Sequence record: MZ501069 | DNA length: 51,777 nucleotides | Direction: 5' to 3' (one strand) | From: Escherichia phage FritzSarasin | In this document: piece by piece, positions 2,113 through 51,777 of the stretch | Numbering within the stretch: the first letter of the stretch is position 1 | Layout: the number at the start of each line of letters is the position of its first letter | Notes under the pieces: generated by a model | What the model was told of the DNA's origin: nothing | Database searches by the model: none | Seen by the model: only the letters and a program-made list of their open reading frames with translations | Program-made: the position numbers and the translations under genes

Positions 2113-2125
2113 GTTATATAATCAA

Positions 2126-21546: not shown

Positions 21547-22602
21547 ATGAGTGATTTTAACGCCTACACTAGCGAAGAAATGAGCAATGAGCTTTATCAT
21601 GATCCTAACGCGTGGACGGCTGAATACGTCAGCGGTTCCAGCTTGGCGGAGATTTACAGCACTTGCCCGGCGTACTGGAAGTACAAGCCTCGCCAGGAAA
21701 CTAAGGCACTTGTTTTCGGTACGCAGTCGCATACCAATTTTGAAAGCAATGAGTTATTCGAAAAAACATATCGCCGCGCACCGTCGCAGGATGATTTTAA
21801 AGATCTGATCACAAGTCAAACGGCGTTAGCCTCAAAGCTGAAATCTTTTGGCCTGAAAGGTACAACGGGTAAGCAATACCCAGAATTGCTGGAAATGCTG
21901 TACAAGTGCGGTGAGGATCTCAATGTATGGTGGCTTATCGAAATGATGGCAGAATGCCAGGCCGCAGCGGACGGCGTGCAGTTAATCGACGCGAAAGATT
22001 ATGATGCCTGTGTAGCGATGCGGCGCGTACTTGAGGCAATACCTGAGCATAATGCTTGCATGAATAGCCCAACCGCGCAGCGTGAAATGTCAATATTCGG
22101 GATCATCAATGGCGTAAAAGTTAAAGTGCGCCTTGATCACGTTGACGTAAACAAGGATGTAAAGGCCACAATCATTAACGGTTACGACGAAAAAGGCCGA
22201 CCGATTTATGAAGAAGTCATCTATCCAGAAGCTGTGATTATCACTGACTATAAAACAACGGTTAGCGCAAATCCGGTTGACTTCCAGCGCCTGGCTTACA
22301 ATCACGGCTATTATCTCAAAATGGCTTTGCAGCATGATTTATTTAAAAAGGCGTATCCAGACGAGGAAAGGCCAGTAATTGTGAGATTGCTTGCTCAAGA
22401 GAAGAAAGAGCCTTACTTGCCGCTCGCATTCCGCATGAACATTGAGCAATTGAAGATCGGGCGTATCCAGTACATGAGCGTGATCAACAAGTTCAACGTT
22501 TGCCAACAGTTAGATGAATGGCCTTCGTATGCAAACGGGCAGCCAGAAATTGATCTTGATACTCCTGATTGGGTGCGCGCTCAATTCAGGCAGTATCTAT
22601 GA
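21547..22602 (+). CDS. putative recombination exonuclease (PD-(D/E)XK type)
   Basis: 351 aa; block VIITDYKTT resembles the D...(D/E)xK nuclease core; first gene of an exo-Erf-SSB module. Confidence 0.5.
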   Translation: MSDFNAYTSEEMSNELYHDPNAWTAEYVSGSSLAEIYSTCPAYWKYKPRQETKALVFGTQSHTNFESNELFEKTYRRAPSQDDFKDLITSQTALASKLKSFGLKGTTGKQYPELLEMLYKCGEDLNVWWLIEMMAECQAAADGVQLIDAKDYDACVAMRRVLEAIPEHNACMNSPTAQREMSIFGIINGVKVKVRLDHVDVNKDVKATIINGYDEKGRPIYEEVIYPEAVIITDYKTTVSANPVDFQRLAYNHGYYLKMALQHDLFKKAYPDEERPVIVRLLAQEKKEPYLPLAFRMNIEQLKIGRIQYMSVINKFNVCQQLDEWPSYANGQPEIDLDTPDWVRAQFRQYL

Positions 22603-22677
22603 CAAACTAAACAAATAGCTAAACTTTTATAATGGTTGGTGATATAATTCGCCAACCAGATAACGGGAGAATGAGAG

Positions 22678-22935
22678 ATGACAGATAAAGACAATGCCAC
22701 ATTATTGCATTTAGAGCGATTCATTGATCGAGTAACCATTGCAATGAAAGAATTTATTAAGCCGATGAACATTAAAGAGTCGGAAGAAATGAAGACTTAC
22801 ATCAAGGACGTGGTTGCATCCATTGACAACGTTATCCTTGTTGCAACGATGAGCAAGGGAAACAAAGAGCGCGAGAGGTTGGTTGCTGAATCAACAGAAG
22901 AATTTATTAAAATGCTTGAAAGCGAGAAGGAATAA
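22678..22935 (+). CDS. hypothetical protein
   Basis: 85 aa with RBS GGGAGAATGAGAG upstream; between exonuclease and Erf. Confidence 0.5.
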   Translation: MTDKDNATLLHLERFIDRVTIAMKEFIKPMNIKESEEMKTYIKDVVASIDNVILVATMSKGNKERERLVAESTEEFIKMLESEKE

Positions 22936-23592
<657 letters not shown>

Positions 23593-23635
23593 TAAACGGG
23601 GCGCTTGCGCCCCTTTTGTCATAGGAGAAAACAAA

Positions 23636-24082
23636 ATGCACGTTATTACAGGTGAGATCCGAAAAGAGCCAAAAGTAAAGCAAATGCCTAACGGTAGCAC
23701 GCTATATGTTGTTGAGCTTTCCGAACGATATAAAGACCGTGAAGGCAATTGGCAGTATACAAACTATGTATTTTTCTTTAACGCGAAAACAGACGGCCTG
23801 AATGGTTGGTATGCTGAGGCGTTCCAGGTAGGCAAGGTTATTTCTGTTTCCTGCGATACCTTGCGAGTTGAAACGCGAGAATACAACGGAAAGATTTACA
23901 GCACCGTGCAGCCTGGCGGATTTGCAAACTTGCTATTTAGCCAGCGTGGGGAAAGCCAGCAACAATATCAGCAGCGCACTCAAGGTGGATGGGGGCAACC
24001 ACAACAGCAACAAATCCCTCAACAGCAACCACAGCAAAGCAATCAGCCGCCGATTGACTTTGATGACGATATACCTTTCTGA
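23636..24082 (+). CDS. ssb: single-stranded DNA-binding protein
   Basis: 148 aa; OB-fold-like N-terminus, Q/G/P-rich linker, acidic tail ending DFDDDIPF. Confidence 0.85.
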   Translation: MHVITGEIRKEPKVKQMPNGSTLYVVELSERYKDREGNWQYTNYVFFFNAKTDGLNGWYAEAFQVGKVISVSCDTLRVETREYNGKIYSTVQPGGFANLLFSQRGESQQQYQQRTQGGWGQPQQQQIPQQQPQQSNQPPIDFDDDIPF

Positions 24083-26755: not shown

Positions 26756-26785
26756 TGACAATGCAGATAATAGCATTTTCAAATG

Positions 26786-28288: not shown

Positions 28289-28299
28289 CTAGTCACCTC

Positions 28300-31602: not shown

Positions 31603-31860
31603 ATGGAAAAAGAGAGAAGCGTTTATTTAAATGAAACTGGCGAGTGGTTGTTATTTCGCGCTATGGTGTGCGATGCACTTGATAAAAACCCTAACGTGAA
31701 AAAGATGATTGATTGCGATCCGTGGGAATTTTCAAGCGCATTAGATATGAGCTTTGAGGAGACAAGAAAACTCCCGCTTGAAAAATGGCACGAACAAATC
31801 AGAAATGACATGCAAGAGTTTGTCGATTCGTGGAATTTTCAGCACGGAATGATCCACTAA
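31603..31860 (+). CDS. hypothetical protein
   Basis: 85 aa with GGAG RBS; stop TAA embedded in the next motif copy. Confidence 0.55.
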   Translation: MEKERSVYLNETGEWLLFRAMVCDALDKNPNVKKMIDCDPWEFSSALDMSFEETRKLPLEKWHEQIRNDMQEFVDSWNFQHGMIH

Positions 31861-31879
31861 TAGCACTTTTTGTTAAAAC
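31859..31879 (+). promoter_or_regulatory. conserved promoter-module motif copy (rightward)
   Basis: AATAGCACTTTTTGTTAAAAC, hairpin GCCCGGCCTAGTGTCGGGC, CATAAT; ATG 77 nt downstream. Confidence 0.6.
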
Positions 31880-31935
31880 GCCCGGCCTAGTGTCGGGCAT
31901 AATTATTTCAACGAAGCAAACATGAGGAAATAAAA

Positions 31936-41837: not shown

Positions 41838-42109
41838 TACTTCTTGATCTCCTCACTGATAAATTTCAGCACCTGACGCAAGAAAACCTCGTTGTTGATG
41901 GTCGCTGGCAATTCTTCTTTCACTTCTTGCGGCAGATAGATATTGCCGTGCCAGGTCAAGCAATCGTAGTTGATACGATAAGAGCAAAGCCACTCGCAAT
42001 CGTTATCTGCTTCCCAAATGCAGAGTTGCAGAACATCGCCAAAATCTTCAACAGTCAGATCCAGACCGTGACGCTTAGCGAAGTTGAAAGTGGTTTTGCT
42101 GATGTTCAT
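41837..42109 (-). CDS. hypothetical protein
   Basis: 90 aa; first gene of leftward unit from the 42168 module. Confidence 0.55.
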   Translation of the reverse strand: MNISKTTFNFAKRHGLDLTVEDFGDVLQLCIWEADNDCEWLCSYRINYDCLTWHGNIYLPQEVKEELPATINNEVFLRQVLKFISEEIKK

Positions 42110-42167
42110 TGCTATCTCCTGAGCGGTTCGTTTCGATGTGTGTAATGTACCCGATCAGACGGCCTGA

Positions 42168-42188
42168 GTTTTAACAAAAAGTGCTATT
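42168..42188 (-). promoter_or_regulatory. conserved promoter-module motif copy (leftward)
   Basis: Minus-strand reading AATAGCACTTTTTGTTAAAAC, about 22 nt, TACATT; ATG about 80 nt downstream. Confidence 0.55.
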
Positions 42189-42742
42189 TGACGGTTAGCG
42201 CCAGGATTGTGATCGAAATAATCAAAAGTAATCATTCGTAATCAAATCAAGTCAAAATGATGATTGCCTTTGCAAATTTGATGAGAAAAGTAATCACGTT
42301 TAATCATTGGTTGCAGGGGAGATAGTGAAACCTTCCCCTCTTGCCTCACTTTTTTGCCTGGCTGTCAGTGGTTGTTGTCTTTTGTTCACCCCTGTTACCG
42401 ATTTCAGGCGGCGTGTTTCCGCGCGGTTTTCCGGTGTAGCGAAAACGGAAAAAACAAAGAAAATCCTTTATAATACATTGAAAATAAAGATTATTTATTT
42501 ATATATATCTATAATGTTTTCTTTTTGTTCTCACTGTTACAGTGCTTTTTGTTGGTTATGGTGTGGTTGTGTGTGGGCATATATGGATAGTTGCGCGCGC
42601 GGCGGATTGCATATGTATATATACTTTTTCCGGCGGATTGCGTTAACAGCGTGAACAGAAAAATAACAGCCGTGAAATCAATAACTTGCGCATGATTTTG
42701 TAGTTTTTTGATATTGGTAACGTTTTGAATACAACAAAAACA

Positions 42743-42770
42743 TTGACACGCACCAAATAGCTTTTATAAT
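42743..42770 (+). promoter_or_regulatory. consensus sigma70 promoter (TTGACA-N16-TATAAT)
   Basis: Perfect -35 and -10 hexamers about 30 nt upstream of ATG 42802. Confidence 0.65.
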
Positions 42771-42801
42771 GCGCCAACAGTCAACAACTGGAGGAAAGGA
42801 A

Positions 42802-43266
42802 ATGGAACAGAAGACCACTAAGGACTATTGCGATTGGCTTCGCGAGCTTGGTCGCCGCCTGGCTAGTGGCGATATTGAAGAGTATAAAATGTCACTAATT
42901 GACCTGGCCGGAATGTTAAGCGGTGACGACTGCTACAAGATCACGCGCAGTTCATCCTACAGCCGGACCATTATCAACCGCGTTCCAGAAGTAAGGGCCG
43001 CAGGTCGGGTAAGTATCAAGGTCGAGGAAACGGAAGATGATAAATTTTACGTTTTCCGCATGGTGCGCGAATCGAAAAGGAAAATCATCACACCCGAAGA
43101 ATTGCCAGCCATAAAGGCAAGGGCGATCAAAAAGTTTGCCGATCGCTTACTGGCAGCAATCCCGAACATCGTGGACCTGGAGGGTGATAAACTGGCTGGA
43201 GCTTGTGAGGGCGTAAGCCGCTACCAGGATATGATTCGCGAAATCATCAAAGAGGAGGAGCAATAA
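42802..43266 (+). CDS. hypothetical early protein
   Basis: 154 aa from ATG 42802 (RBS GGAGGAAAGG); track start 42769 lies inside the -10. Confidence 0.55.
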   Translation: MEQKTTKDYCDWLRELGRRLASGDIEEYKMSLIDLAGMLSGDDCYKITRSSSYSRTIINRVPEVRAAGRVSIKVEETEDDKFYVFRMVRESKRKIITPEELPAIKARAIKKFADRLLAAIPNIVDLEGDKLAGACEGVSRYQDMIREIIKEEEQ

Positions 43267-43526
43267 TGAAAAAGGCATTAATCGGCGTTTTGGCGGCAAT
43301 GACACTCCTGACCGGATGCGAAAAGGCATCAGAATCAACGGTTGTCGTAGGCGTGGAGTCAGATTTCAAAGTCGGTCGCCTGTTCACTGTTGACGGATGC
43401 ACAGCATACAGATTCTATGATAACGGTCGCGCGATCTATTACACCAATTGCAAAGGCGCAACGGATAGCACGTACAACAGCGGAAAGAACGTAATGCACC
43501 AGCAAGTCACAACAGATATTAAATAG
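43266..43526 (+). CDS. putative lipoprotein
   Basis: 86 aa; signal peptide with lipobox LLTGC; stop TAG embedded in the next motif copy. Confidence 0.6.
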   Translation: MKKALIGVLAAMTLLTGCEKASESTVVVGVESDFKVGRLFTVDGCTAYRFYDNGRAIYYTNCKGATDSTYNSGKNVMHQQVTTDIK

Positions 43527-43542
43527 CACTTTTTGTTAAAAC
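43522..43542 (+). promoter_or_regulatory. conserved promoter-module motif copy (rightward)
   Basis: AATAGCACTTTTTGTTAAAAC + hairpin GCCAGGCGCAAAGCCTGGC + CATAAT; ATG 77 nt downstream. Confidence 0.6.
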
Positions 43543-43598
43543 GCCAGGCGCAAAGCCTGGCATAATAGCCTCATCGAAACGAGATTGAGGAAACAAAA

Positions 43599-43784
43599 AT
43601 GGCACGTCGCATCACCAAAGACCTTAAAGTCCTGAACAAAGAAAACGTAGTTAAAATCCTAGTTATCTGGGGCTACAACGAAGAAACAGCAAAGCAGAAG
43701 GTAGAGGCGGGTTATGACCTGGCTGTAAAAGCAATGCCAAACGACGACGCCAAAGGCATTGCAAACTATGTAGCTTTCTTTTAA
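43599..43784 (+). CDS. hypothetical small protein
   Basis: 61 aa with RBS GAGG. Confidence 0.5.
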   Translation: MARRITKDLKVLNKENVVKILVIWGYNEETAKQKVEAGYDLAVKAMPNDDAKGIANYVAFF

Positions 43785-43799
43785 TTAGCAGGTGAATAA

Positions 43800-43985
43800 A
43801 TGAAAACGAAATTAGTCCATAAATCAGAAATCAAGATCGGCGATACTGTGATTCACAACGGAGAGCTTAGAACGGTTGGCAAAGAGTCAATAAGCCACGA
43901 TGAATTTATGGGGATCTTGTTGTTCGGTGACTCTTATCGTCTTGGTTACAAGATGGTTGAGCTTGTGGAAGAAGTGAAATTCTAA
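43800..43985 (+). CDS. hypothetical small protein
   Basis: 61 aa; stop TAA embedded in the next motif copy. Confidence 0.5.
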   Translation: MKTKLVHKSEIKIGDTVIHNGELRTVGKESISHDEFMGILLFGDSYRLGYKMVELVEEVKF

Positions 43986-44005
43986 ATAGCACTTTTTGTT
44001 AAAAC
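43985..44005 (+). promoter_or_regulatory. conserved promoter-module motif copy (rightward)
   Basis: AATAGCACTTTTTGTTAAAAC then CCAGGCATAAT. Confidence 0.55.
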
Positions 44006-44084
44006 TCAAAAACGATAACCAGGCATAATAAATCACATAGGGCGGCACGGCGTCGCCCAGTTAAACCAATCAGGAGAAAGCACC

Positions 44085-44978
44085 ATGTTAAAACTTGCTG
44101 ACATTAAATTCCCGATCACCTTCGAATCTCGTGGTGTTGGTCATTACGTTTTTACCGATGAGAAAACATGCCATAACGTTTGGTTGCACAGCGATAAGTT
44201 AAGCCCATCAACAATGGAGATTCAGCACTTTATTGATGCGCATAATCAGCACTACAACTCAATCCGTGACTACGGCTACGCAATGCCAGGCTACACATGC
44301 TTGCACTACAAGCCATATAAGGGCCAGGTGTTACCAGTGCGCTCACCGGAACGTGCAGAGATTCCGATGGTCCACATGAAAACCTGCGACTACAAAAAGC
44401 TGTGGTGCTTAAGTGTGGACAATATCAAGTATCCGATCACGTTCTACACGGTTGGTAATTCAACGATTCGCTTCACATCGCGCGACAATGGCGTTTATAG
44501 CGATGGTACGAAATCAGAGTTGAAAGTTGATTTCTTTGTCAACGGTCACAACAAATTCAATCCGCACAACGAAGAGGATAAAGTGTACTACGTGGAAGAC
44601 ATTACAAAACACTTGTTTGGAGAAACTCCATTCGGCGGCGGAAAGACGTCAATTCAAAAAATCATTGGCGAGGAGATCCACAAAGCGGCTGCCGAAATGA
44701 AAGCGCCTGGAGGCTGGCGTATTGATAAGAGCGCCTTTGCAAATCAAGAAATCGTAACGCAGGGCGCGATTGAAGATATGCCAGTTGCAGCCACGCTAAA
44801 AGGAGTCCGGCTTGATGATGGTGTGTGGTTTGAAGTAACGGCCACACCAAAGACGATCGAGATTCATGATGATGTTGTTATCCTCCTGCTTCACTACGGC
44901 GGCACTAAAAATCGGACTGTTGCAGGTGAGATCAGCATCAAGCGCGGAACGATGGTTAAGTGGAAGGTGAAGATTTGA
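44085..44978 (+). CDS. hypothetical protein with internal tandem repeat
   Basis: 297 aa; N-terminal repeats IKFPITFESRGVGHYVFTDEKT and IKYPITFYTVGNSTIRFTSRDNG. Confidence 0.6.
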   Translation: MLKLADIKFPITFESRGVGHYVFTDEKTCHNVWLHSDKLSPSTMEIQHFIDAHNQHYNSIRDYGYAMPGYTCLHYKPYKGQVLPVRSPERAEIPMVHMKTCDYKKLWCLSVDNIKYPITFYTVGNSTIRFTSRDNGVYSDGTKSELKVDFFVNGHNKFNPHNEEDKVYYVEDITKHLFGETPFGGGKTSIQKIIGEEIHKAAAEMKAPGGWRIDKSAFANQEIVTQGAIEDMPVAATLKGVRLDDGVWFEVTATPKTIEIHDDVVILLLHYGGTKNRTVAGEISIKRGTMVKWKVKI

Positions 44979-45054
44979 GTTTGTTCACTGCGGCGCACGT
45001 CGCCGCATGGATCGGATTGTTTGCCTACCTGTTTAGCTTTTATTGAGGTGAGAG

Positions 45055-45207
45055 ATGGCTACCTGGATTTTGCTGATTCTTATGATTGATGGCGGCGTTG
45101 ACCATATCGAAATGAATAGCCAGCAATCTTGCATTGAGGCACGAGAACAGATCAAGAACGACAACAGGTTTTATGCGTACACTCACACGCTATGTATTAA
45201 GAAATAG
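45055..45207 (+). CDS. putative small membrane peptide (not in ORF track)
   Basis: 50-aa ORF with RBS GAGGTGAGAG; hydrophobic N-terminus; stop TAG embedded in the next motif. Confidence 0.35.
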   Translation: MATWILLILMIDGGVDHIEMNSQQSCIEAREQIKNDNRFYAYTHTLCIKK

Positions 45208-45223
45208 CACTTTTTGTTAAAAC
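45203..45223 (+). promoter_or_regulatory. conserved promoter-module motif copy (rightward)
   Basis: AATAGCACTTTTTGTTAAAAC + GGGGCCAGG TATAAT GGCC; ATG 74 nt downstream. Confidence 0.6.
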
Positions 45224-45276
45224 TCAAATGTGGGGCCAGGTATAATGGCCTCACTTTCAACGAAGGAGATAAAACG

Positions 45277-45507
45277 ATGTACATTAAAAAGAAGATGAAA
45301 TGCGTTTCCGTTAACTATGCTTGCTCTGGTATGTTCAAGCCTGGCGAAATCTATACAGCGCAAAAACTGAAATCATCAACCGGATCTTTTTACGTGAGCA
45401 ATAGTAAGGGGCATCGCATGTTCCTGAACGGCGGCGAAGGCACTAAGGTTATGGCACACGCTATGGTAATGGCTGAATTTGAGGAAGTGAAAGATGAAAA
45501 CAAATAA
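45277..45507 (+). CDS. hypothetical small protein (FKPGEIY motif)
   Basis: 76 aa from ATG 45277 (RBS AAGGAG); track start 45214 lies inside the promoter module. Confidence 0.5.
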   Translation: MYIKKKMKCVSVNYACSGMFKPGEIYTAQKLKSSTGSFYVSNSKGHRMFLNGGEGTKVMAHAMVMAEFEEVKDENK

Positions 45508-45715
45508 TCGCGTCAAGCACAGGTTTACTGATAACCACGGCGACGCGATTGATGTATACAAGTTCGGCGATCGCGTGTTTATTGATGGCACGTTTGAAGG
45601 TGGGCGCAGGCCGGATTTTAGGTCGATACTTACCGTTGACCAAGTGCGCAAGCTGGCAGATAAGTTAAATGATCTGGCAGATGAAATAGAATACAAGCAA
45701 ATCCATTTTAATTGA
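45494..45715 (+). CDS. hypothetical small protein
   Basis: 73 aa; overlaps upstream gene. Confidence 0.5.
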   Translation: MKTNNRVKHRFTDNHGDAIDVYKFGDRVFIDGTFEGGRRPDFRSILTVDQVRKLADKLNDLADEIEYKQIHFN

Positions 45716-45726
45716 TAGGTTTGATA

Positions 45727-46269
45727 ATGAAAAAATACACTTTCGAACTGTGGGGCAAAAAGTACGAATTAATCACCAGCAAGCCGATTGTTATCGTTGA
45801 CCTGGACGGCACACTATCGGACGGATCGCATCGTTTGCATTTGCTGCCAACTGAAAACTTGCACCTTACGGAATCGTGGCGCGAGTTTAACAGGGCCGCC
45901 GCCGGAGATTCACCTATTAAAAGCACTATCGCGGTTATTAACGGTTTATGGGTGTCGGGATTTGCCATCGTCATCTTGACCGGACGCAGCGACGAGGTTC
46001 GCTATGAAACCTGCAAATGGTTGAATGAGAACGGCGTGAAGTTTGACGAAATCATCATGCGCCGCCAGGAGGACAACCGAAAGGATACGGTTATCAAAGA
46101 AGAAGCCTTGCGCGCTATTGGCCTGGACAACATTGTTTGCGCCTTTGACGATTCGCCGAACGTGGTTAAGCACTTCCGCAGCCTGGCAATCACAACCTAT
46201 CAGGTCACGGAATACGACAAGCCGCACGCTCACCTGCAATCTCACGGCGTGGAGGAGTTGCAGAAATGA
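45727..46269 (+). CDS. HAD-superfamily phosphatase (nucleotidase / polynucleotide 3-phosphatase-like)
   Basis: About 180 aa; HAD motif I IVIVDLDGTLSDG, motif II ILTGR, C-terminal FDDS. Confidence 0.6.
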   Translation: MKKYTFELWGKKYELITSKPIVIVDLDGTLSDGSHRLHLLPTENLHLTESWREFNRAAAGDSPIKSTIAVINGLWVSGFAIVILTGRSDEVRYETCKWLNENGVKFDEIIMRRQEDNRKDTVIKEEALRAIGLDNIVCAFDDSPNVVKHFRSLAITTYQVTEYDKPHAHLQSHGVEELQK

Positions 46270-46475
46270 TCCTGAATGTAGCATATGCTAACCCTCGCGG
46301 CTGCAATATATACGGCTTTAAGGTTGGCGCGATGGTCAACGCCAGGATAAACGAAAAAGGCGTATTAGTTGTCAAGTCCCCTAAAACTGGCATGGATATG
46401 CGCATCAAGGAGAACGGCGGAAGATTGTTTATCAGGTCAATATCTGGTCAAACGCTCGCAACGTTCACAAAATAG
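46266..46475 (+). CDS. hypothetical small protein
   Basis: 69 aa; stop TAG embedded in the next motif copy. Confidence 0.5.
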   Translation: MILNVAYANPRGCNIYGFKVGAMVNARINEKGVLVVKSPKTGMDMRIKENGGRLFIRSISGQTLATFTK

Positions 46476-46491
46476 CACTTTTTGCAAAAAC
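46471..46491 (+). promoter_or_regulatory. conserved promoter-module motif copy (rightward)
   Basis: AATAGCACTTTTTGCAAAAAC + hairpin GGGCTTGCGGTATAGTAAGCCC. Confidence 0.6.
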
Positions 46492-46546
46492 AGATTATCG
46501 GGCTTGCGGTATAGTAAGCCCATCGACAACGAAAGAGGAAGCGGCG

Positions 46547-46846
46547 ATGTTAGTACGCAATGCGATTTATAAATTCACAAACGAGATGGGGGTTCACCTT
46601 TACCACGTAAACCATCAAGGCAACACCTCAATCGCGATGTATCGCGACGCTCGCGGGAAGTGTAGGCCTTCTCTGCGTGGCAGAATTTCTCCTGCGTTCT
46701 TCATGTTTAGATGGTATGCAACAGAACAAAGCAACCATAACCATTGGAATAAAGTATTGATTGCAGGAGGCCGAATTGTTGCCAGTCACGTAGTCGATCC
46801 TTGCAAACTAACCAGTCGCCAGCTTCGCAAAATGGCGCGCAAATAG
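46547..46846 (+). CDS. hypothetical protein
   Basis: 99 aa; flanked by near-identical modules at 46471 and 46842. Confidence 0.5.
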   Translation: MLVRNAIYKFTNEMGVHLYHVNHQGNTSIAMYRDARGKCRPSLRGRISPAFFMFRWYATEQSNHNHWNKVLIAGGRIVASHVVDPCKLTSRQLRKMARK

Positions 46847-46861
46847 CACTTTTTGTTAAAA
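46842..46861 (+). promoter_or_regulatory. conserved promoter-module motif copy (rightward)
   Basis: AATAGCACTTTTTGTTAAAA + hairpin CGGCTTGCGGTATAGTAAGCCC. Confidence 0.6.
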
Positions 46862-46917
46862 TCAACTTTACGGCTTGCGGTATAGTAAGCCCATCAACAA
46901 CAAACGAGGATTAAATC

Positions 46918-47181
46918 ATGGCTAACAAGATCGAGTTTTTTAAAGCGGTAGACATTATCGACGGCGCGCCTAGCTTCTTTGCCATCCATTCTATTGACGG
47001 CAAGGATATTGGGTACAACGTTATCCGTCGAGATGGAATCTCAAAACTTAGTGATCTGGTAGGTCATGTTGTGGCAAACGGTAAATGTGCATGGCCCGAT
47101 TCACCGCGAGAGCCACGCCGCCGCGACATGGTAGAGCCTGTTCTGCTTTACACTCTGTTAGTAGAAGGAGAAAATAAATGA
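46918..47181 (+). CDS. hypothetical protein
   Basis: 87 aa with RBS GAGGA. Confidence 0.5.
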   Translation: MANKIEFFKAVDIIDGAPSFFAIHSIDGKDIGYNVIRRDGISKLSDLVGHVVANGKCAWPDSPREPRRRDMVEPVLLYTLLVEGENK

Positions 47182-47363
47182 TTTGGTTACTTGCTTTTTT
47201 GGTTGTTTTTCTTTACATTTCAGGCTTATTCACGTTCCGCGCGTTGGTGAAATATTCTGACACGACAGACAAGGACGATAAAATCGTTCTCGCTTTCTGG
47301 TTTGTTTGGGTGTGGTTAGCAATTTACGAGATCATCAGAGACAAACAGAAATTTGAGTGGTGA
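47178..47363 (+). CDS. putative small membrane protein
   Basis: 61 aa with two hydrophobic helices. Confidence 0.45.
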   Translation: MIWLLAFLVVFLYISGLFTFRALVKYSDTTDKDDKIVLAFWFVWVWLAIYEIIRDKQKFEW

Positions 47364-47423
47364 TTCTTGCTATGGCGCATTCATGCAGTGCGCCATGTTG
47401 AGAAAACCTAAAGGGGGGGGGGA

Positions 47424-47576
47424 ATGATGCGTAACTTTGAAAAAATCATTACCAAAAAGAAGCTTCGCGGGTACGATGAGCATGTGGAGCTTGTGAAAAA
47501 GCAACGCAAGAAGCGCAACGAAGACAAGAAGCGCGGGAAAAAATTTAATGCGATTTTTCGCTATGGAGGAAACTAA
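47424..47576 (+). CDS. putative small basic protein (not in ORF track)
   Basis: 50-aa K/R-rich ORF directly after a G10 homopolymer; stop abuts next ATG. Confidence 0.3.
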   Translation: MMRNFEKIITKKKLRGYDEHVELVKKQRKKRNEDKKRGKKFNAIFRYGGN

Positions 47577-47768
47577 ATGCAATTGCCACCATTTAACGAA
47601 AAAAGCGAAGAGATTGCCAAAACTGCATGTCACCTTCGAGAGCTTGCCGACATGATAGAGCGCGGTCAGGTTATGATTGTCAATATGACTATCAAAAGCG
47701 AGAATAGAAATTTCAAGGTTTTAAGCGAGACAACAGAAATTACCGTCTTGAAAGCAAGGGGAGAGTAA
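47577..47768 (+). CDS. hypothetical small protein
   Basis: 63 aa with RBS GGAGGA. Confidence 0.45.
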   Translation: MQLPPFNEKSEEIAKTACHLRELADMIERGQVMIVNMTIKSENRNFKVLSETTEITVLKARGE

Positions 47769-47770
47769 TC

Positions 47771-48361
47771 ATGAAACGAGACATTATCATCCTTAATGGG
47801 CCTCCAGGTTGCGGGAAGGACACTATTGCAGCTTACCTAACGGGCCATCGTTACCCAGCGGTTAAGGCATCGTTCAAGCAACCTATGTTCGACATTGCTT
47901 TTTCTATGCTTGGCCCGACTCGATACGATGAATTTATGGATCTGTACAACGACCGAGAGCAAAAAGAAAAGCCTCAAGTTATCTTAGGCGGCAAGTCACC
48001 TCGACAATTCATGATCTGGATTAGCGAGGATGTAATGAAGCCAGTTTTTGGGGATCACTATTTCGGGCGTCGAATGGTTGAAGAGATTCACGAGATGTAC
48101 CGAGATTTGGCGGTTGTGATCAGTGATGGCGGATTCCCCGAAGAAATCAAGCCGCTTGTTAAGGAAGGGCATGAAGTGCATATTTGCCGATTGCATCGCG
48201 ACGGCTTCACGTTTGCTGGCGATTCGAGAGACTACATTGACCTGAGCGGTTATCACTATCGAATCCATCACTATGACTTCCAATTGCAGGACGGCAAGCC
48301 GGAAATGGCTGTAAACGAGATCGTCAATACGGTCAAATGGAAGCACACACAGATTAAATAG
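47771..48361 (+). CDS. P-loop kinase, dNMP-kinase-like
   Basis: 196 aa; N-terminal P-loop ILNGPPGCGKDT; later VISDGG and HICRLHR blocks resemble phage dNMP kinases (from memory). Confidence 0.55.
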   Translation: MKRDIIILNGPPGCGKDTIAAYLTGHRYPAVKASFKQPMFDIAFSMLGPTRYDEFMDLYNDREQKEKPQVILGGKSPRQFMIWISEDVMKPVFGDHYFGRRMVEEIHEMYRDLAVVISDGGFPEEIKPLVKEGHEVHICRLHRDGFTFAGDSRDYIDLSGYHYRIHHYDFQLQDGKPEMAVNEIVNTVKWKHTQIK

Positions 48362-48376
48362 CACGAATTGCTAAAC
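48357..48376 (+). promoter_or_regulatory. conserved promoter-module motif, variant copy (rightward)
   Basis: AATAGCACGAATTGCTAAAC + hairpin GCGGGGTTATCTGCCCCGC + TATAAT; ATG 75 nt downstream. Confidence 0.55.
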
Positions 48377-48431
48377 GCGGGGTTATCTGCCCCGCTATAA
48401 TGCGCACATCAACAAGCAAGAGGAAATTACA

Positions 48432-48812
48432 ATGGTTAACATCCGAAAAATCCGCGTCGGCACTAAATTCTTAGTTACTTATGCAATTCCCGATAGCGGA
48501 ATGAAGAAGGGCCAGATTGTTAAGGTTGATAGCAAAAGGTTCGGAATCCCTGGTATCAATGGCTATCTAATCAATAAAGATCTTGGATTCGACGGCTTCG
48601 CTATCCGTGCGCTTGAGGGTATTGTTGCCACTCTTAAGCGAATCACTAATCATCGCGGTTGTCCAATCAAGACGATTAAAGCGCCAATAAATTACGGCAA
48701 ACTGGATAATCGTCGAATCCGCCGCCTGGCGCGTAACGCGTTAAAATTCCGTGGCGTAGGCGATGATTTCTACTATGGATACAAGAGGATTGCGCGCAAT
48801 GCTGGGAAATAA
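48432..48812 (+). CDS. hypothetical protein
   Basis: 126 aa; basic. Confidence 0.55.
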   Translation: MVNIRKIRVGTKFLVTYAIPDSGMKKGQIVKVDSKRFGIPGINGYLINKDLGFDGFAIRALEGIVATLKRITNHRGCPIKTIKAPINYGKLDNRRIRRLARNALKFRGVGDDFYYGYKRIARNAGK

Positions 48813-48911
48813 CAATAACGCAACGAATCCTAAGCCACCTTTTGATTTTCATTCCGCAATGATTGCGGTATTATCAATGCTACTTTTTCTTTATAGCATG
48901 AGGGCGCTACT

Positions 48912-49160
48912 ATGGTTTTTAACGCATTGAAACGACTGTTTAAGCCGGAATACCGGATCGTATTTTGCCGCGACTGTTCTACTTATCATGTGCAGCGACG
49001 CAGCTTAGGCGGCAATTGGCACTATGTTACAGACGACTTTTTCGGCATCATTGCCACTGAATTTAAGTATTACAGTGATGCTTATATGTACGTCAAGAAT
49101 CGCCACCGCTTACGCAAGTGTCGTTTTTCCGTGCTGATTCACGTTAATGATTGTTACTGA
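48912..49160 (+). CDS. hypothetical protein
   Basis: 82 aa ORF. Confidence 0.45.
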   Translation: MVFNALKRLFKPEYRIVFCRDCSTYHVQRRSLGGNWHYVTDDFFGIIATEFKYYSDAYMYVKNRHRLRKCRFSVLIHVNDCY

Positions 49161-49167
49161 GGTGAAA

Positions 49168-49350
49168 ATGAAAACTGGCATTATTATTCTTTTTCTGATC
49201 CTTTTCGGCAGCTATTTAACCATTAACTATGAGGGCATTATGGCCTTTTGGGGCAACTTGATGATGTTTACCGCTGGTTCGATTGCTGGCTACTCTGACG
49301 GGAAAAAGGATGGCGTTCGCAAGATGCTGATGGGGCTTAAACAAAAATAA
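49168..49350 (+). CDS. putative small membrane protein
   Basis: 60 aa from ATG 49168 (RBS GAGGTGAAA); two hydrophobic segments. Confidence 0.4.
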   Translation: MKTGIIILFLILFGSYLTINYEGIMAFWGNLMMFTAGSIAGYSDGKKDGVRKMLMGLKQK

Positions 49351-49361
49351 GGGGATCTGAA

Positions 49362-49652
49362 ATGGCAAACAAAACTTACCGCAAACTACTGGTTAACGCT
49401 TTTGAAAATATCGCGCAGTGTAACAAGTGGAACGACTCTAAACACTCGCCAATCACAATGAAGCGCGCCGGATTCAAAAATGCTCGTTCATGGGCGCGAG
49501 CTTTCGCAGCTTGCTATATGCCGGATGGTGGACTAGGAGCGATGAACGAGTTTTTGATCAACATGATAGAGGAAGCTGCGCGAGAGGATCGACCGCTGAC
49601 ACAGCGAGATTTTGATGATTTCGCGCGCGATGAGCTTTACTATCTGAGCTAA
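49362..49652 (+). CDS. hypothetical protein
   Basis: 96 aa; stop TAA embedded in the next motif copy. Confidence 0.5.
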   Translation: MANKTYRKLLVNAFENIAQCNKWNDSKHSPITMKRAGFKNARSWARAFAACYMPDGGLGAMNEFLINMIEEAAREDRPLTQRDFDDFARDELYYLS

Positions 49653-49671
49653 TAGCACTTTTTGTTAAAAC
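49651..49671 (+). promoter_or_regulatory. conserved promoter-module motif copy (rightward)
   Basis: AATAGCACTTTTTGTTAAAAC + hairpin GGGCATTTGGTAAAGTGCCC; ATG 77 nt downstream. Confidence 0.6.
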
Positions 49672-49727
49672 TTCCGCAAGGGCATTTGGTAAAGTGCCCT
49701 TATTGAAGCGAAACAGAGGAAAGCGCA

Positions 49728-49940
49728 ATGAAAATCAAAATCACCAAAATCGACACTATCAACGGCGACGGATCAATCACTCTTGAGCAATGCGGTTTGG
49801 TTGTTGGTGATGTGCTGGAAGTTGACGGACATTTCAGCGACGGATCTTATTGTGTTATTGCGCCGCGTAACAGCGAGTTTATCAAGGCTGGCGACAATAT
49901 TAGTGTTAACCATGACGAATGCGAGGTAGTAGAAGAATGA
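49728..49940 (+). CDS. hypothetical small protein
   Basis: 70 aa with RBS GAGGAAAG. Confidence 0.5.
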   Translation: MKIKITKIDTINGDGSITLEQCGLVVGDVLEVDGHFSDGSYCVIAPRNSEFIKAGDNISVNHDECEVVEE

Positions 49941-50200
49941 TCACGATTAACCTGTCAGAGCAGCAAGCGCGCATTATGTTGTCGGCCTTCGGTTGGCGAG
50001 ACAATGACGGTTTACAGGCCACAGTTAAAATTTATGAGCCAGTGGCGCGTGAAGTTTTCAGCCAGCTAGAACACGCATTTGATCCTGCTGGGACTGAGCA
50101 AGCGGAAACTGCCGCATGGTTCGGAGAGAACGGATACAGAGATCAGCAAGTCGAAAACTGGAAGCGCATAAACGAGACTATGGAGGAATCAGGTTTATGA
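49937..50200 (+). CDS. hypothetical protein
   Basis: 87 aa from ATG 49937 (RBS GAGGTAG); overlaps upstream stop. Confidence 0.5.
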   Translation: MITINLSEQQARIMLSAFGWRDNDGLQATVKIYEPVAREVFSQLEHAFDPAGTEQAETAAWFGENGYRDQQVENWKRINETMEESGL

Positions 50201-50511
50201 TTTACATTCACTACTACCAAATCGGAACTAACGAGAACAAAAAAGAGCATCGTTTCATCCACGATGATTTGGACAAGGCAAAGGCCCAGCAACAGGTTTT
50301 AGGCGGCGTCATTCAGGCTTTTGAGCCTGTAGAAGATATTGAGTACCGCGAGAATTTAAAAGATGTTGTTATTGATGAGATCTCTTGCTTGATTGATGAT
50401 ATGACAAATCACGGCCCTGGTTCCCCGTGGGAAGATGCAGGATCTGTAACGTGGGATAAGGCAAAAGTTAAGACGCTAAACAACTTTCGAGAGATTCTCG
50501 ACGGTTTTTAA
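50197..50511 (+). CDS. hypothetical protein
   Basis: 104 aa from ATG 50197 (RBS GGAGGA); overlaps upstream stop. Confidence 0.5.
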   Translation: MIYIHYYQIGTNENKKEHRFIHDDLDKAKAQQQVLGGVIQAFEPVEDIEYRENLKDVVIDEISCLIDDMTNHGPGSPWEDAGSVTWDKAKVKTLNNFREILDGF

Positions 50512-50581
50512 TTAAAAACGCATAGCCGTTAGAGCGCCTCAATCGCATTCTAACGAGCTATTTTTCTGGTAAGGTGATTTA

Positions 50582-50710
50582 ATGGATGAGTACAAACAAC
50601 CTTCGCAGTGGTGCAAAGAGAAGCAAGAAGAGGCACTGGAGCGCGGAGATGTGGAAGAAGCTATGAACTATTTCAAACTTGCGGAAGAATGGAAGGGGAG
50701 AGGATACTGA
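50582..50710 (+). CDS. putative micro-ORF (not in ORF track)
   Basis: 42-aa ORF with RBS AAGGTGA; stop overlaps next ATG. Confidence 0.3.
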   Translation: MDEYKQPSQWCKEKQEEALERGDVEEAMNYFKLAEEWKGRGY

Positions 50711-50940
50711 TGTTCGGCATGAATGAGGCGCAATTCAACGCAGCTAAACGCCAGGCTAAAAAGTGCGGCGAGGCGATGAAAGCGGATGTGGAAAAGCGCG
50801 GGAAGTATGTTGATGAAGTAATGAAGGGCATCATTGCAGAACACTACCAGCCAATCGCGCCAATGTTGACGATCACTCAATTCATTTGGCTATGTGGTTA
50901 CTTGCGTGGACGTTGGGGGAACGCTTTCGACAGGGAATGA
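50710..50940 (+). CDS. hypothetical protein
   Basis: 76 aa from ATG 50710 (RBS GGGGAGAGGA). Confidence 0.45.
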   Translation: MFGMNEAQFNAAKRQAKKCGEAMKADVEKRGKYVDEVMKGIIAEHYQPIAPMLTITQFIWLCGYLRGRWGNAFDRE

Positions 50941-51102
50941 TTGACAACTCTTTCCTGATTGGTTAGCATGGCGTCGTTTACATAAGAGCGGCTTAGTCCG
51001 AACGCGTGACGCGATAGTCACACAACAACGGCGATATGCAGGAGGTTTTTGCAACGCAAAATAATCCATAAGACGTATCGCCTTTTTTAATGGAGATCCA
51101 AA

Positions 51103-51336
51103 ATGATTAAATACAAATTAACAGTTTCTTTCCGTGATACCGTTATTCATCCTTTCTACAATAGCTTTGTTAACAGCTTTACGGTAGAGGCGACAGAGGA
51201 TCAGCTGGACGGTGACGAAACTTGCATTTCTATTGGAAATGTTGCCTACCCGATTCACAACATTACCAGCATTAAGCGTGAGGTTGTCGCTGATGAATTA
51301 CAAAGTGAAGATGACGATCCGGCGAATGGGGCGTAA
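51103..51336 (+). CDS. hypothetical protein
   Basis: 77 aa with RBS GGAGA. Confidence 0.45.
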   Translation: MIKYKLTVSFRDTVIHPFYNSFVNSFTVEATEDQLDGDETCISIGNVAYPIHNITSIKREVVADELQSEDDDPANGA

Positions 51337-51474
51337 TTGCCAATCATGCAAACAGGAATATGAATGCGTAGTTGATGCTCTTGATGAACTGGAAGCAGTA
51401 GCAAAAGCAAAAGAGCAATCGGGCGCTAATCCTGAAACACATCAATTTTCAATTAATCTTGTGAGGGCTTTACA

Positions 51475-51699
51475 ATGATCGCATTATCTTTCTGCATTGG
51501 TTTTATCATGGCTATCATTATCTTTTCCGTTGTCATGCGCTTTGTTTATAAGTTCGTGATTAATAAAGGTTGGTACGCTTCTGCCATCTGGAGCGAAAAA
51601 CAAAAGAAATGGCTTGTTCGTGGTCAATACCTGACAATCGGTAGCAAGATCCTAAATTCCATTCGAGCCAAAGATGGAAAAGTAAAATATACAGCTTAA
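51475..51699 (+). CDS. putative membrane protein
   Basis: 74 aa; N-terminal hydrophobic helix; followed by terminator. Confidence 0.45.
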   Translation: MIALSFCIGFIMAIIIFSVVMRFVYKFVINKGWYASAIWSEKQKKWLVRGQYLTIGSKILNSIRAKDGKVKYTA

Positions 51700-51704
51700 A
51701 AATT

Positions 51705-51728
51705 ACCCGCCGCACGGCGGGTTTTTTA
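51705..51728 (+). terminator. rho-independent terminator
   Basis: ACCCGCCGCACGGCGGGT followed by TTTTTTATT; then TGGTATAAT and AGGAGG feed the terminase gene at position 1. Confidence 0.65.
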
Positions 51729-51777
51729 TTGCCCGTTGTCTGGTATAATCAGGCATCTAACCAAAGGAGGATTAATA

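What the first reader, a model, noticed from the sequence alone, without database searches (positions are those of the whole stretch)
46471..46920. One gene bracketed by about 50-bp near-identical direct repeats
The modules at 46471-46530 and 46842-46900 share the motif and the same hairpin (CTTGCGGTATAGTAAGCCCATC) in direct orientation on either side of the 99-aa gene 46547-46846. Recombination between them would delete or duplicate exactly one gene, illustrating the cassette architecture.
Basis: seen in the sequence. Interest (0 to 1): 0.45.

Follow-up and report, generated by a model that had tools for sequence, protein, structure and literature searches.

The report
Promoter-like repeats bracketing a swappable phage gene
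Two copies of a repeated promoter-plus-hairpin module of a T1-like coliphage flank one small gene of unknown function, and related phages lack exactly that gene with the join inside the repeat, so the modules act as recombination points for swapping accessory genes, as described before for T4-like phages.

Summary
Positions 46470-46539 and 46841-46910 are 70-nt direct repeats, 83% identical and 371 nt apart, with a 24-nt perfect core. They bracket a 99-aa ORF.

They are 2 of 21 copies of a strand-following module in a T1-like (Drexlerviridae, Warwickvirus-like) genome. The module has four parts:
- a 20-nt box, AATAGCACTTTTTGTTAAAA, which usually holds the upstream gene's stop codon;
- a 19-nt spacer with a variable stem-loop;
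- a -10-like hexamer;
- a conserved leader (CATCGAAAC...), then RBS and ATG 76 nt from the box start.

The box is the 21-nt repeat reported in phage TLS in 2024, whose function was left as an open question.

Phages JLBYU19, tuinn and brachmannus have the same upstream gene and one chimeric module (M1 5' half, M2 3' half). Exactly one 371-nt unit is missing, and the switch lies inside the 24-nt core. All four combinations of upstream gene and cassette presence exist. The cassette is 93% identical to a Hanrivervirus copy, while the flanks are 72-79%. No duplication variant was found.

The closest known analogue is the PeSL promoter/stem-loop cassette of T4-like phages. I file this as a new member of a known kind. 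Promoter activity and the recombination mechanism are inferred, not shown.

The parts
46266..46475 (+). Upstream 69-aa ORF. It overlaps the polynucleotide kinase stop codon, and its own TAG stop is bases 3-5 of the M1 box.
   Evidence: Annotated as a hypothetical or 'putative heat shock' protein in JLBYU19 and tuinn. No PHROG or Pfam hit.
46471..46490 (+). M1 20-nt box, AATAGCACTTTTTGCAAAAA. It matches the T1-like 21-nt repeat aaATAGCACnnnTTGnTAAAA.
   Evidence: The consensus is from PMC11447400.
46500..46521 (+). M1 stem-loop: an 8-bp stem that includes one G-U pair, with loop GGTATA. It encloses the -10-like hexamer.
   Evidence: -14.9 kcal/mol, z = -3.36.
46510..46515 (+). M1 -10-like hexamer TATAGT, exactly 19 nt after the box.
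46501..46524 (+). 24-nt core GGCTTGCGGTATAGTAAGCCCATC, identical to 46872-46895. This is the interval in which the crossover of the cassette-less relatives maps.
46516..46546 (+). M1 leader (AAGCCCATCGACAACGAAAGAGGAAGCGGCG) with RBS AGAGGAA. The inferred transcription start is near the A of CATCGA.
   Evidence: for the conserved leader CAtCgAAACgAAAc. The transcription start is an inference.
46547..46846 (+). The cargo: a 99-aa ORF of unknown function (phrog_8382). It is an accessory gene found in only 16 related phage records.
46842..46861 (+). M2 20-nt box, AATAGCACTTTTTGTTAAAA, a perfect match to the consensus. It contains the TAG stop of the 99-aa gene.
46872..46891 (+). M2 stem-loop: a 7-bp stem enclosing the -10-like hexamer.
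   Evidence: -11.2 kcal/mol, z = -3.14. A compensatory change, GGCTT/AAGCC to GGCCT/AGGCC, is seen in tiwna and MikeNSara.
46881..46886 (+). M2 -10-like hexamer TATAGT, 19 nt after the box.
46887..46917 (+). M2 leader and RBS (AAGCCCATCAACAACAAACGAGGATTAAATC).
46918..47181 (+). Downstream 87-aa ORF. In most Warwickvirus relatives it is the only occupant of this slot.
   Evidence: Not homologous to the 99-aa protein.
21547..24080 (+). Phage-encoded recombination genes: exonuclease VIII (21547-22602), Erf-like single-strand annealing protein (22939-23592) and SSB (23636-24080). They are the inferred machinery for short-homology exchange.
   Evidence: One search shows 94.7-98.6% DNA identity to the annotated MikeNSara genes listed. 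Their role at the modules is an inference.

Best explanation
The two repeats are neighbouring copies of the regulatory module that T1-like phages place in front of many transcription units.

Anatomy of the module:
- An invariant 20-nt box that also supplies the upstream gene's stop codon.
- A 19-nt spacer carrying a stem-loop whose sequence varies between modules.
- A -10-like hexamer, with G at -14 in most of the 18 canonical modules.
- A conserved A/C-rich leader, then RBS and ATG 76 nt from the box start.

Inferred function: host RNA polymerase most likely starts about 7 nt after the hexamer. The stem-loop would form only in read-through RNA from the upstream gene, or in single-stranded DNA, where it could act as an attenuator or a 3'-end stabiliser.

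Every module shares the box. M1 and M2 also share a 24-nt perfect core. The pair is therefore a substrate for homologous recombination, probably by the phage's own ExoVIII/Erf/SSB system or by copy-choice during replication. An exchange inside the core removes, inserts or transfers exactly one unit made of half a module, the 99-aa gene and half a module. It leaves one functional chimeric module, so the downstream gene keeps its promoter, leader and RBS.

Shown here: the anatomy, its statistics, and the natural variants with chimeric junctions.
Inferred: promoter activity, the role of the stem-loop, the enzymes involved and the direction of the event.
For: The family and its geometry:
- The window has 21 modules that follow the coding strand.
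- A -10-like hexamer lies exactly 19 nt after the box in 16 of 21 modules, and at 18 nt in 2 more. No other offset has more than 3.
- The same holds for 481 of 563 unique modules from IMG/VR contigs.
- The leader is conserved and the ATG is 76 nt from the box start. This matches the roughly 76 nt reported for phage TLS.
- The upstream ORF's stop codon lies in or against the box in 16 of 21 modules.
- Stem-loops have z below -2 in 16 of 21 modules, against 7% of control windows.
- The sense strand folds more stably than the antisense strand (Wilcoxon p = 0.005).

This pair and its variants:
- M1 and M2 are the most similar pair in the window (78% against a median of 30%). They rank 2nd of 400 adjacent pairs across all loci.
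- Five relatives have a chimeric single module with one clean switch inside 46501-46524.
- The missing unit is 371-372 nt.
- All four combinations of upstream gene (69 aa or 63 aa) and cassette presence or absence exist.
- The cassette 46469-46842 is 93.3% identical to Hanrivervirus damhaus, while the flanks are 79.3% and 71.9%.
- The MikeNSara allele has identical modules and gene ends around a centre that is only 35-80% identical.
- 8 of 38 distinct similarity breakpoints fall in the 6.2% of the region covered by modules (p = 0.002). Five of the seven modules have a breakpoint within 1 nt of the box start.

Machinery:
- ExoVIII, Erf and SSB genes are present.
- No integrase is annotated in close relatives.

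Analogy: PeSLs of T4-like phages have the same layout and the same chimeric-module signature.
Against: - No transcription start, promoter activity or terminator activity has been measured, and I found no transcriptome of a T1-like phage.
- The module lacks a canonical -35. TTGTTA lies 22 nt, and TTAAAA 18-19 nt, from the -10. A sigma-70 consensus scan flags only 1 of the 7 modules in 43000-51777.
- Covariation of the stems among orthologous modules is weak. Double changes kept the pair 10 times and broke it 9 times. Single changes kept it 60 times and broke it 129 times.
- A breakpoint at the box start is expected wherever a conserved element abuts variable genes, whatever the mechanism.
- 30 of 38 breakpoints lie outside modules.
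- Adjacent modules are in general no more alike than distant ones (median 42% for both), so local exchange is not pervasive.
- The right end of the cassette in damhaus has no module. At least one step in the history was therefore not module-to-module homologous exchange.
- No duplication variant was seen.
Confidence: 0.72

Rival explanations
1. Conserved promoters only. M1 and M2 are alike because both are versions of the promoter that belongs to the slot after the polynucleotide kinase gene. Selection on function keeps them similar. The presence or absence of the 99-aa gene arose by illegitimate recombination or old polymorphism, and the repeats played no mechanistic part.
For: - The same core precedes whichever gene sits in this slot across two genera.
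- Most breakpoints are outside modules.
Against: - An illegitimate event would not be expected to leave a seamless chimeric module whose switch falls in the only 24-nt perfectly shared stretch, in five phages with two different upstream genes.
- All four combinations exist.
- Identity jumps sharply at the box starts, 93% against 72-79%.
Confidence: 0.1
2. The outcome is the same but the mechanism differs. Deletion or insertion happens by replication slippage or template switching between the short direct repeats, helped by the hairpins. It does not need the phage Erf/ExoVIII annealing pathway.
For: - The perfect homology is short (24 nt), the repeats are only 371 nt apart, and each contains a hairpin. 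From general knowledge, this is the classic substrate for RecA-independent deletion between direct repeats.
Against: - Slippage within one genome cannot explain transfer of the cassette between genera, or reassortment with different upstream genes.
- The genome encodes a dedicated annealing system.
Confidence: 0.1
3. The 20-nt box is not part of a promoter. It is an operator or 'stoperator' bound by a phage regulator, for example the Cro/YdaS-like protein at 27812-28288 (- strand). The module's main role is then repression or timing. This concerns what the module does and is compatible with its use as a recombination site.
For: - The box is far more conserved than RNA polymerase contacts usually are: 10 perfect 20-mers.
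- The TLS authors raise stoperators and enhancer sites as options.
- A Cro-like HTH gene is a core gene of the family and sits next to a module.
Against: - The fixed 19-nt distance to a -10-like hexamer in about 85% of 563 modules points to a promoter element.
- Complete modules occur in the T4-like Klebsiella phage KP15. The regulator was not seen in any roughly 175-kb phage among the sampled tblastn rows.
Confidence: 0.15
4. An integron-like system: the hairpins are attC-like sites cut and rejoined by a site-specific recombinase.
For: - The layout resembles gene cassettes, with a hairpin at each boundary.
Against: - No integrase or other site-specific recombinase is annotated in close relatives.
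- Hairpin sequences differ between modules.
- The junction lies in a stretch of plain sequence identity.
Confidence: 0.02

Closest known systems
PeSLs (promoter-early stem-loops) of T4-like phages RB49/phi1, PST/T4 and nt-1/KVP40 (Arbiol et al. 2010, PMC2839356; Comeau et al. 2014, PMC4122927)
   Same: - Repeated intergenic modules that begin at the upstream gene's stop codon.
- They contain promoter elements and a stem-loop placed between the promoter boxes or over the -10, and end at the SD and start codon.
- They flank ORFans.
- Close relatives differ by one ORFan, with a single chimeric module left behind.
(searches compared)
   Different: - The host genome is a roughly 51-kb T1-like siphovirus, not a T4-like myovirus.
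- The sequence is unrelated: RB49 PeSLs are TTGACA-N17-TATAAT. Here there is an invariant 20-nt box, 19 nt, then a -10, with no canonical -35.
- The stems are not polyG/polyC.
- Promoter activity, terminator activity and mini-circles were shown experimentally for PeSLs and are untested here.
The 21-nt intergenic direct repeat of phage TLS and other T1-like phages (PMC11447400, 2024)
   Same: - The same consensus, aaATAGCACnnnTTGnTAAAA.
- The same orientation with transcription.
- The same distance of about 76 nt to the start codon.
- A similar copy number (18-21).
(one search compared)
   Different: - That paper describes only the 21-mer and leaves its function as an open question (stoperator, enhancer or UP element).
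- It does not report the fixed -10, the stem-loops, the conserved leader or a role in gene exchange.
Conserved boundary or linker sequences at mosaic junctions of lambdoid phages, and promoter-flanked 'morons' (general knowledge, not checked here)
   Same: Short conserved intergenic sequences act as preferred crossover points between otherwise unrelated genes. Accessory genes arrive with their own transcription signals.
   Different: Here the element is one highly repeated, sequence-defined module with rigid internal geometry, present about 20 times in each genome.

Membership tests
T1-like 21-nt intergenic repeat (TLS 'DR' elements) | Matches the consensus aaATAGCACnnnTTGnTAAAA. | tested here: met
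   M2 has 0 mismatches and M1 has 2 against AATAGCACTTTTTGTTAAAA. The consensus is quoted.
T1-like 21-nt intergenic repeat (TLS 'DR' elements) | Intergenic, in the direction of transcription, about 76 nt upstream of a start codon, with about 18-21 copies per genome. | tested here: met
   From 46471 to 46547 is 76 nt, and from 46842 to 46918 is 76 nt. There are 21 strand-following copies.
PeSL-type regulatory cassette | A repeated motif holding sigma-70-type promoter elements (-35, N17, -10). | tested here: inconclusive
   A -10-like hexamer lies at a fixed 19 nt from the box in 16 of 21 modules here and in 481 of 563 IMG/VR modules. There is no canonical -35 at 17 nt, and the sigma-70 scan flags only the module at 45203.
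PeSL-type regulatory cassette | A stem-loop between the promoter boxes or overlapping the -10. | tested here: met
   16 of 21 modules have z below -2. Both positional classes are seen. M1 and M2 enclose the -10.
PeSL-type regulatory cassette | The module runs from the upstream gene's stop codon to the SD and start codon of the downstream gene. | tested here: met
   The stop codon is in or at the box in 16 of 21 modules. The leader, RBS and ATG are shown.
PeSL-type regulatory cassette | Close relatives differ by an ORFan flanked by two modules, and the cassette-less genome has one chimeric module. | tested here: met
   JLBYU19, tuinn, brachmannus and L016.
PeSL-type regulatory cassette | Demonstrated promoter activity and terminator activity. 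| not testable with these tools
   This needs reporter assays or 5'/3' RNA end mapping. No published data were found.
PeSL-type regulatory cassette | Formation of excised mini-circles (module plus ORFan). | not testable with these tools
   This needs inverse PCR or read-level data from lysates.
PeSL-type regulatory cassette | Resident in the hyperplastic regions of T4-like myovirus genomes. | tested here: not met
   The window is a Drexlerviridae genome. The element therefore works like a PeSL but is not a member of the described T4-like sets. Two copies of the T1-type module do occur in the T4-like phage KP15.
Integron gene cassette / attC | An associated integrase and site-specific attC recombination sites. 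| tested here: not met
   No integrase appears in the annotation of a 96%-identical relative. The junction lies in simple sequence identity.
Intrinsic (Rho-independent) terminator | A GC-rich stem followed by a T-run. | tested here: not met
   The terminator scan finds nothing at 46500-46521 or 46872-46891. The stems are followed by ATCGAC and ATCAAC.
Known RNA family (Rfam) | A covariance-model match. | tested here: not met
   There is no match in 42000-51777 apart from two chance-level hits elsewhere.

The most novel reading that the evidence does not exclude
The T1-type module (box, 19 nt, -10, leader) is a self-sufficient portable promoter cassette read by host RNA polymerase through a non-canonical upstream contact. 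It moves between unrelated phage families: it occurs in Drexlerviridae siphoviruses and in the T4-like Slopekvirus phages KP15 and KP27, where two copies also bracket a single gene. It serves as the general exchange point for accessory genes. That would answer the open question about the T1 21-nt repeat and extend PeSL-type shuffling beyond T4-like phages.
Probability: 0.35. Interest if true: 0.65.

Novelty: new member of a known kind. Interest (0 to 1): 0.5.

Why it matters
T1-like phages (Drexlerviridae) are among the most commonly isolated coliphages and Klebsiella phages, and they are used in therapy collections. Their early regions are full of small genes of unknown function that differ between near-identical isolates. 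A 2024 paper on phage TLS explicitly lists the function of the family's 21-nt intergenic repeat as an open question.

The evidence here gives a concrete and testable answer in two parts. First, the repeat is the upstream element of a rigid promoter/stem-loop/leader module. Second, these modules are points at which single accessory genes are gained, lost and reassorted, as PeSLs do in T4-like phages.

Practical uses follow:
- It predicts where engineered genes can be inserted with expression signals intact.
- It predicts which deletions will arise spontaneously in production stocks.
- It shows where to look for fast-evolving accessory genes, possibly host-interaction or anti-defence genes.

Tried and rejected
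- **Sigma-54 promoter idea.** TAGCAC...TTGC resembles TGGCAC-N5-TTGC. I rejected it by eye: the GG is AG, the spacing is 1-2 nt too short, most copies read TTGTTA, and a -10 sits at a fixed distance.
- **Canonical sigma-70 promoter.** The consensus scan flags only one module. TTGTTA is 22 nt from the -10.
- **Intrinsic terminator.** There is no T-run after the M1 or M2 stems.
- **Known RNA family.** Rfam finds nothing.
- **Function of the 99-aa cargo.**
  - PHROGs gives only an unknown-function family, and Pfam gives nothing above threshold.
  - The word-indexed search finds 4 clusters, all on roughly 51-kb contigs or short ones.
  - The exhaustive HMMER search finds 7 proteins. The two long ones look like repeat or low-complexity noise.
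  - The AlphaFold model has pLDDT 68, and there is no Foldseek PDB match with E below 1.
  - The IMG/VR search with the protein found no confirmed relative.
- **Homology between the 99-aa and 87-aa proteins.** None.
- **Covariation of stems among orthologous modules.** Inconclusive.
- **Whether adjacent modules are generally more alike than distant ones.** Barely (p = 0.03, equal medians), so M1/M2 is an exception and not the rule.
- **Literature on transcription starts or a recombination role of the repeat in T1-like phages.** Nothing found.
- **Whether the cargo of the KP15 module pair came from T1-like phages.** No; its homologues are in T4-like phages.
Full report
**What the window is.** A 4-kb stretch around the finding is 93-97% identical to many Escherichia phages of Drexlerviridae, Tempevirinae, genus Warwickvirus (Sip, MikeNSara, tonnikala, vB_EcoS-95, tuinn and others). 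The window is about one T1-like genome in length: terminase large subunit at 528-2096, ExoVIII/Erf/SSB at 21547-24080, and the early region of small ORFs from about 43000 to the end.

**Checking the observation.** The direct repeat is real. Positions 46470-46539 and 46841-46910 are 70 nt long, 83% identical and 371 nt apart. The ORF 46547-46846 (99 aa) lies between them.

The first 20 nt of each repeat belong to a family: AATAGCACTTTTTGTTAAAA has 20 matches at up to 3 mismatches, against 0.02 expected. The part after it, GGTATAGTAAGCCCATCAACAA, is found only at these two sites.

A looser pattern gives 21 true copies. Among them this pair is the most similar in the 50 nt after the box, at 78% against a median of 30%. 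Identity is not uniform. There is a perfect 24-nt core, GGCTTGCGGTATAGTAAGCCCATC (46501-46524 = 46872-46895). It is flanked by a diverged spacer on the 5' side and a diverged leader on the 3' side.

**Anatomy of the module.** All copies follow the coding strand. I aligned the 18 canonical copies on the -10-like hexamer. This gives aAATAGCACTTTTTGtTAAAAc, then 14 variable nt, then c.GG, then TATAaT, and then a leader with consensus CAtCgAAACgAAAc, an RBS and ATG.
- The hexamer lies exactly 19 nt after the box in 16 of 21 copies, and at 18 nt in two more. No other offset has more than three.
- In 563 unique modules from IMG/VR contigs carrying the box, 481 have the hexamer at 19 nt.
- The box start is 76 nt from the ATG in both M1 and M2.
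- In 16 of 21 modules the upstream ORF ends in or against the box, and 11 of them use the box's own TAG.
- The 40 nt after the box fold into stem-loops far more often than chance: z below -2 in 16 of 21, against 7% of random genomic windows, with a mean MFE of -11.7 against -5.5 kcal/mol.
- The stems have unrelated sequences and fall into two positional classes. One class sits inside the spacer and ends at the -10. The other encloses the -10, as M1 and M2 do.
- The sense strand folds more stably than the antisense strand (mean difference 2.3 kcal/mol, p = 0.005). This fits a role in RNA read through from upstream, or in the non-template strand.
- Covariation among orthologous modules is weak. 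One clear compensatory change exists in M2 of tiwna and MikeNSara, GGCTT/AAGCC to GGCCT/AGGCC.
- Three copies (2092, 6737, 26738) lack the canonical -10 geometry; 2092 and 26738, like the canonical copy at 10491, are followed by ordinary terminator-like hairpins.

**What is already known.** The 2024 re-annotation of phage TLS describes 18 intergenic copies of a 21-nt repeat, aaATAGCACnnnTTGnTAAAA. They lie in the direction of transcription, about 76 nt upstream of start codons. The paper notes similar repeats in T1, Rtp and Rogue1. It offers stoperators, enhancer sites or UP elements as possibilities, and lists the function as an open question (PMC11447400). So the box itself is known. That paper does not describe the fixed -10, the stem-loops, the leader or a role in gene exchange. 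I found no other paper that does.

The 99-aa gene is present in only 16 of the related phage records.

Megablast of 46266-47363 shows alignment ends stacked at query positions 205/206 and 573-577, which are the first bases of the two boxes.

Three phages from the USA, Denmark and Germany (JLBYU19, tuinn, brachmannus) match the whole query except one unit. Their span is 726-728 nt, against 1098 nt in the window. Their single module reads like M1 on the 5' side (GCAAAAACAGATTATCGGG) and like M2 on the 3' side (CATCAACAACAAACGAGGATTAAATCATG).

Site-by-site scoring shows that every informative site up to 46500 is M1-type and every one from 46525 onward is M2-type. This holds in these three phages and also in JLBYU01 and ityhuna, which have a different upstream gene. 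The switch therefore lies in the 24-nt identical core. Homologous exchange between the repeats predicts exactly this.

**Reassortment.** The interval between the polynucleotide kinase gene and the 61-aa membrane-protein gene exists in at least six arrangements (M = one module):
- pnk, M, 87 aa (Sip, tonijn).
- pnk, 69 aa, M, 87 aa (JLBYU19, tuinn, brachmannus).
- pnk, 53 aa, M, 87 aa (JLBYU01, ityhuna).
- pnk, 69 aa, M1, 99 aa, M2, 87 aa (this window only).
- 63 aa, M1, 99 aa, M2, 87 aa (tiwna, atuna, MikeNSara, JLBYU26).
- pnk, M1, 99 aa, then the 61-aa gene directly (Hanrivervirus damhaus).

IMG/VR contig L016 has the 63-aa gene followed by one module and the 87-aa gene. It is the cassette-less counterpart of tiwna. 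All four combinations of upstream gene (69 or 63 aa) and cassette (present or absent) therefore exist. That requires recombination or repeated gain and loss at the module.

No database record has the window's own combination; the best coverage is 81%.

Against damhaus, the cassette 46469-46842 is 93.3% identical. The kinase gene to the left is 79.3% identical and the region to the right 71.9%. The cassette has therefore moved between genera more recently than its flanks diverged. Its limits are the two box starts.

Within modules there is finer mosaicism. One example is a block change, TTT to GAA, in the box of otherwise orthologous modules. Another is hybrid leaders such as CATCGACAACAAACGAGG.

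The MikeNSara allele of the gene has modules and gene ends that are 95-100% identical, around a centre that is only 35-80% identical.

**How general it is.** Over 42000-51777, compared with 15 related loci, 8 of 38 distinct similarity breakpoints fall in modules, which cover 6.2% of the region (binomial p = 0.002). Five of the seven modules have a breakpoint within 1 nt of the box start.

There are two caveats. A conserved element next to variable genes will always end alignments at its edge. And 30 of the 38 breakpoints are elsewhere, mostly at module-less gene junctions such as 46254, 45492 and 47766.

Adjacent modules are not generally more alike than distant ones (medians both 42%). M1/M2 ranks second of 400 adjacent pairs. 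A second recurrent unit, about 424 nt long and bracketed by modules 72-78% alike, occurs in other T1-like contigs.

**Mechanism.** The window encodes exonuclease VIII, an Erf-like annealing protein and SSB. No integrase is annotated in relatives. From general knowledge, phage annealing systems work on homologies of a few tens of bases.

I infer that annealing-based homologous recombination within the shared core and box, or copy-choice, excises, inserts or transfers the unit. The chimeric module left behind keeps the box, -10, leader and RBS, so the downstream gene stays expressed. Because the box supplies a stop codon, whatever ORF is joined upstream is terminated. The enzymes, the direction of the event and its frequency are not shown.

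**What the module does.** The rigid distance from box to -10 and the conserved leader argue for a promoter. In most of the 18 canonical modules a G occupies -14, as in extended -10 promoters.

It is not a canonical sigma-70 promoter: TTGTTA is 22 nt, and TTAAAA 18-19 nt, from the -10.

Complete modules also occur in the T4-like Klebsiella phage KP15 (Slopekvirus). There two of them bracket the single gene KP15_13B and are annotated 'putative middle promoter; discovered using MEME'. The genes they flank have homologues only in T4-like phages.

The Cro/YdaS-like regulator of T1-like phages (27812-28288) is a core gene of Drexlerviridae. It was not seen in any roughly 175-kb phage among the sampled rows. 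This favours recognition by host polymerase over a family-specific factor, but it is only suggestive.

**The cargo.** The 99-aa protein belongs to a very small family confined to T1-like contigs. It has no informative domain, and its medium-confidence model has no structural neighbour. Its function is unknown. It is not related to the 87-aa protein that otherwise occupies the slot.

**Comparison with known systems.** The closest system is the PeSL of T4-like phages. PeSLs are repeated modules that begin at the upstream stop codon, contain promoter boxes and a stem-loop between the boxes or over the -10, and end at the SD and ATG. They flank ORFans and leave a chimeric module when an ORFan is lost. 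Promoter activity, terminator activity and mini-circles have been shown experimentally for them.

The present element works like a PeSL on every feature I could test. It differs in its host family, in its sequence and in lacking a canonical -35. I therefore file it as a new member of a known kind and not as a member of the described PeSL sets.

**Verdict.** The underlying principle is already known from T4-like phages, and the 21-nt box is already described. New here, as far as the held literature shows, are three things: the full anatomy of the module, its link to single-gene gain, loss and reassortment in T1-like phages, and its presence in a T4-like lineage. Interest is moderate (0.5).

Noticed in passing
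L135 (Klebsiella phage KP15, GU295964) 2557-2650 and 2911-2990; also KP27 and other Slopekvirus records: Complete T1-type modules (box, stem-loop, -10 at 19 nt, leader CATCGAAAC, RBS) occur in a 174-kb T4-like myovirus. Two of them bracket one 87-aa gene. They are annotated there as 'putative middle promoter'. The flanked genes have homologues only in T4-like phages, so the regulatory module and not the cargo is shared across families.
   Followed up: partly
window 31859-31905 (+) and 35123-35077 (-): Two modules in inverted orientation share nearly the same variable part (cgcccggcctagtgtcggg, 74% over 50 nt). This is the second most similar pair in the genome. They face each other across about 3.3 kb and could be a substrate for inversion.
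   Followed up: no
window 46547-46846 compared with L005 4505-4804 (MikeNSara), and P0002-P0004: Alleles of the 99-aa gene have invariant N-terminal (MLVRNA.YK) and C-terminal (VASHVVDP.KLTSRQLRKMARK) ends. Their centres are only about 60% identical at the protein level, and 35-80% identical at the DNA level, with sharp boundaries. This looks like allele replacement or diversifying selection inside a fixed frame.
   Followed up: partly
window 2092-2150, 10491-10400 (-), 26738-26810: These three box copies are followed by strong terminator-like hairpins, with a T-run at 2092. 2092 and 26738 lack the canonical -10 at 19 nt, while 10491 has TAGATT there. The copy at 2092 overlaps the stop codon of the large terminase gene. 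The box is therefore also used in a different context in the late region.
   Followed up: no
L002 (tuinn) 1408-1428 and L006 (brachmannus) compared with window 46471-46490; window 48357-48376: Orthologous modules differ by a block change in the middle of the box, CACTTTTTG versus CACGAATTG. These correspond to the 'T' and 'G' subgroups described for TLS. The pattern suggests conversion between modules and not point mutation.
   Followed up: no
window 27812-28288 (-), next to the module at 28299 (+): A 158-aa Cro/YdaS-like HTH protein, just below Pfam thresholds, lies divergent from a module. It is a core gene of about 850 Drexlerviridae records and a candidate box-binding regulator.
   Followed up: partly
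phage database records named 'Campylobacter phage' (e.g. MG065641 A14a, MG065643 E6), 47-50 kb: About 20 records labelled as Campylobacter jejuni phages match this T1-like coliphage at 80-90% identity and carry the modules. The host assignment looks doubtful.
   Followed up: no
IMG/VR loci L126 1318-1741, L096, L133, L097, L041: Another recurrent single-gene unit of about 424 nt is bracketed by modules 72-78% alike in their variable parts, in other T1-like contigs. It is a second instance of the same layout.
   Followed up: no
window 43322-43984: The stretch holding the module at 43522 and its single small gene is replaced by about 210 nt in JLBYU01 (the flanking matches abut in JLBYU19, and ityhuna also lacks it). 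The right breakpoint falls exactly at the next box start (43984), but the left one is not in a module.
   Followed up: partly
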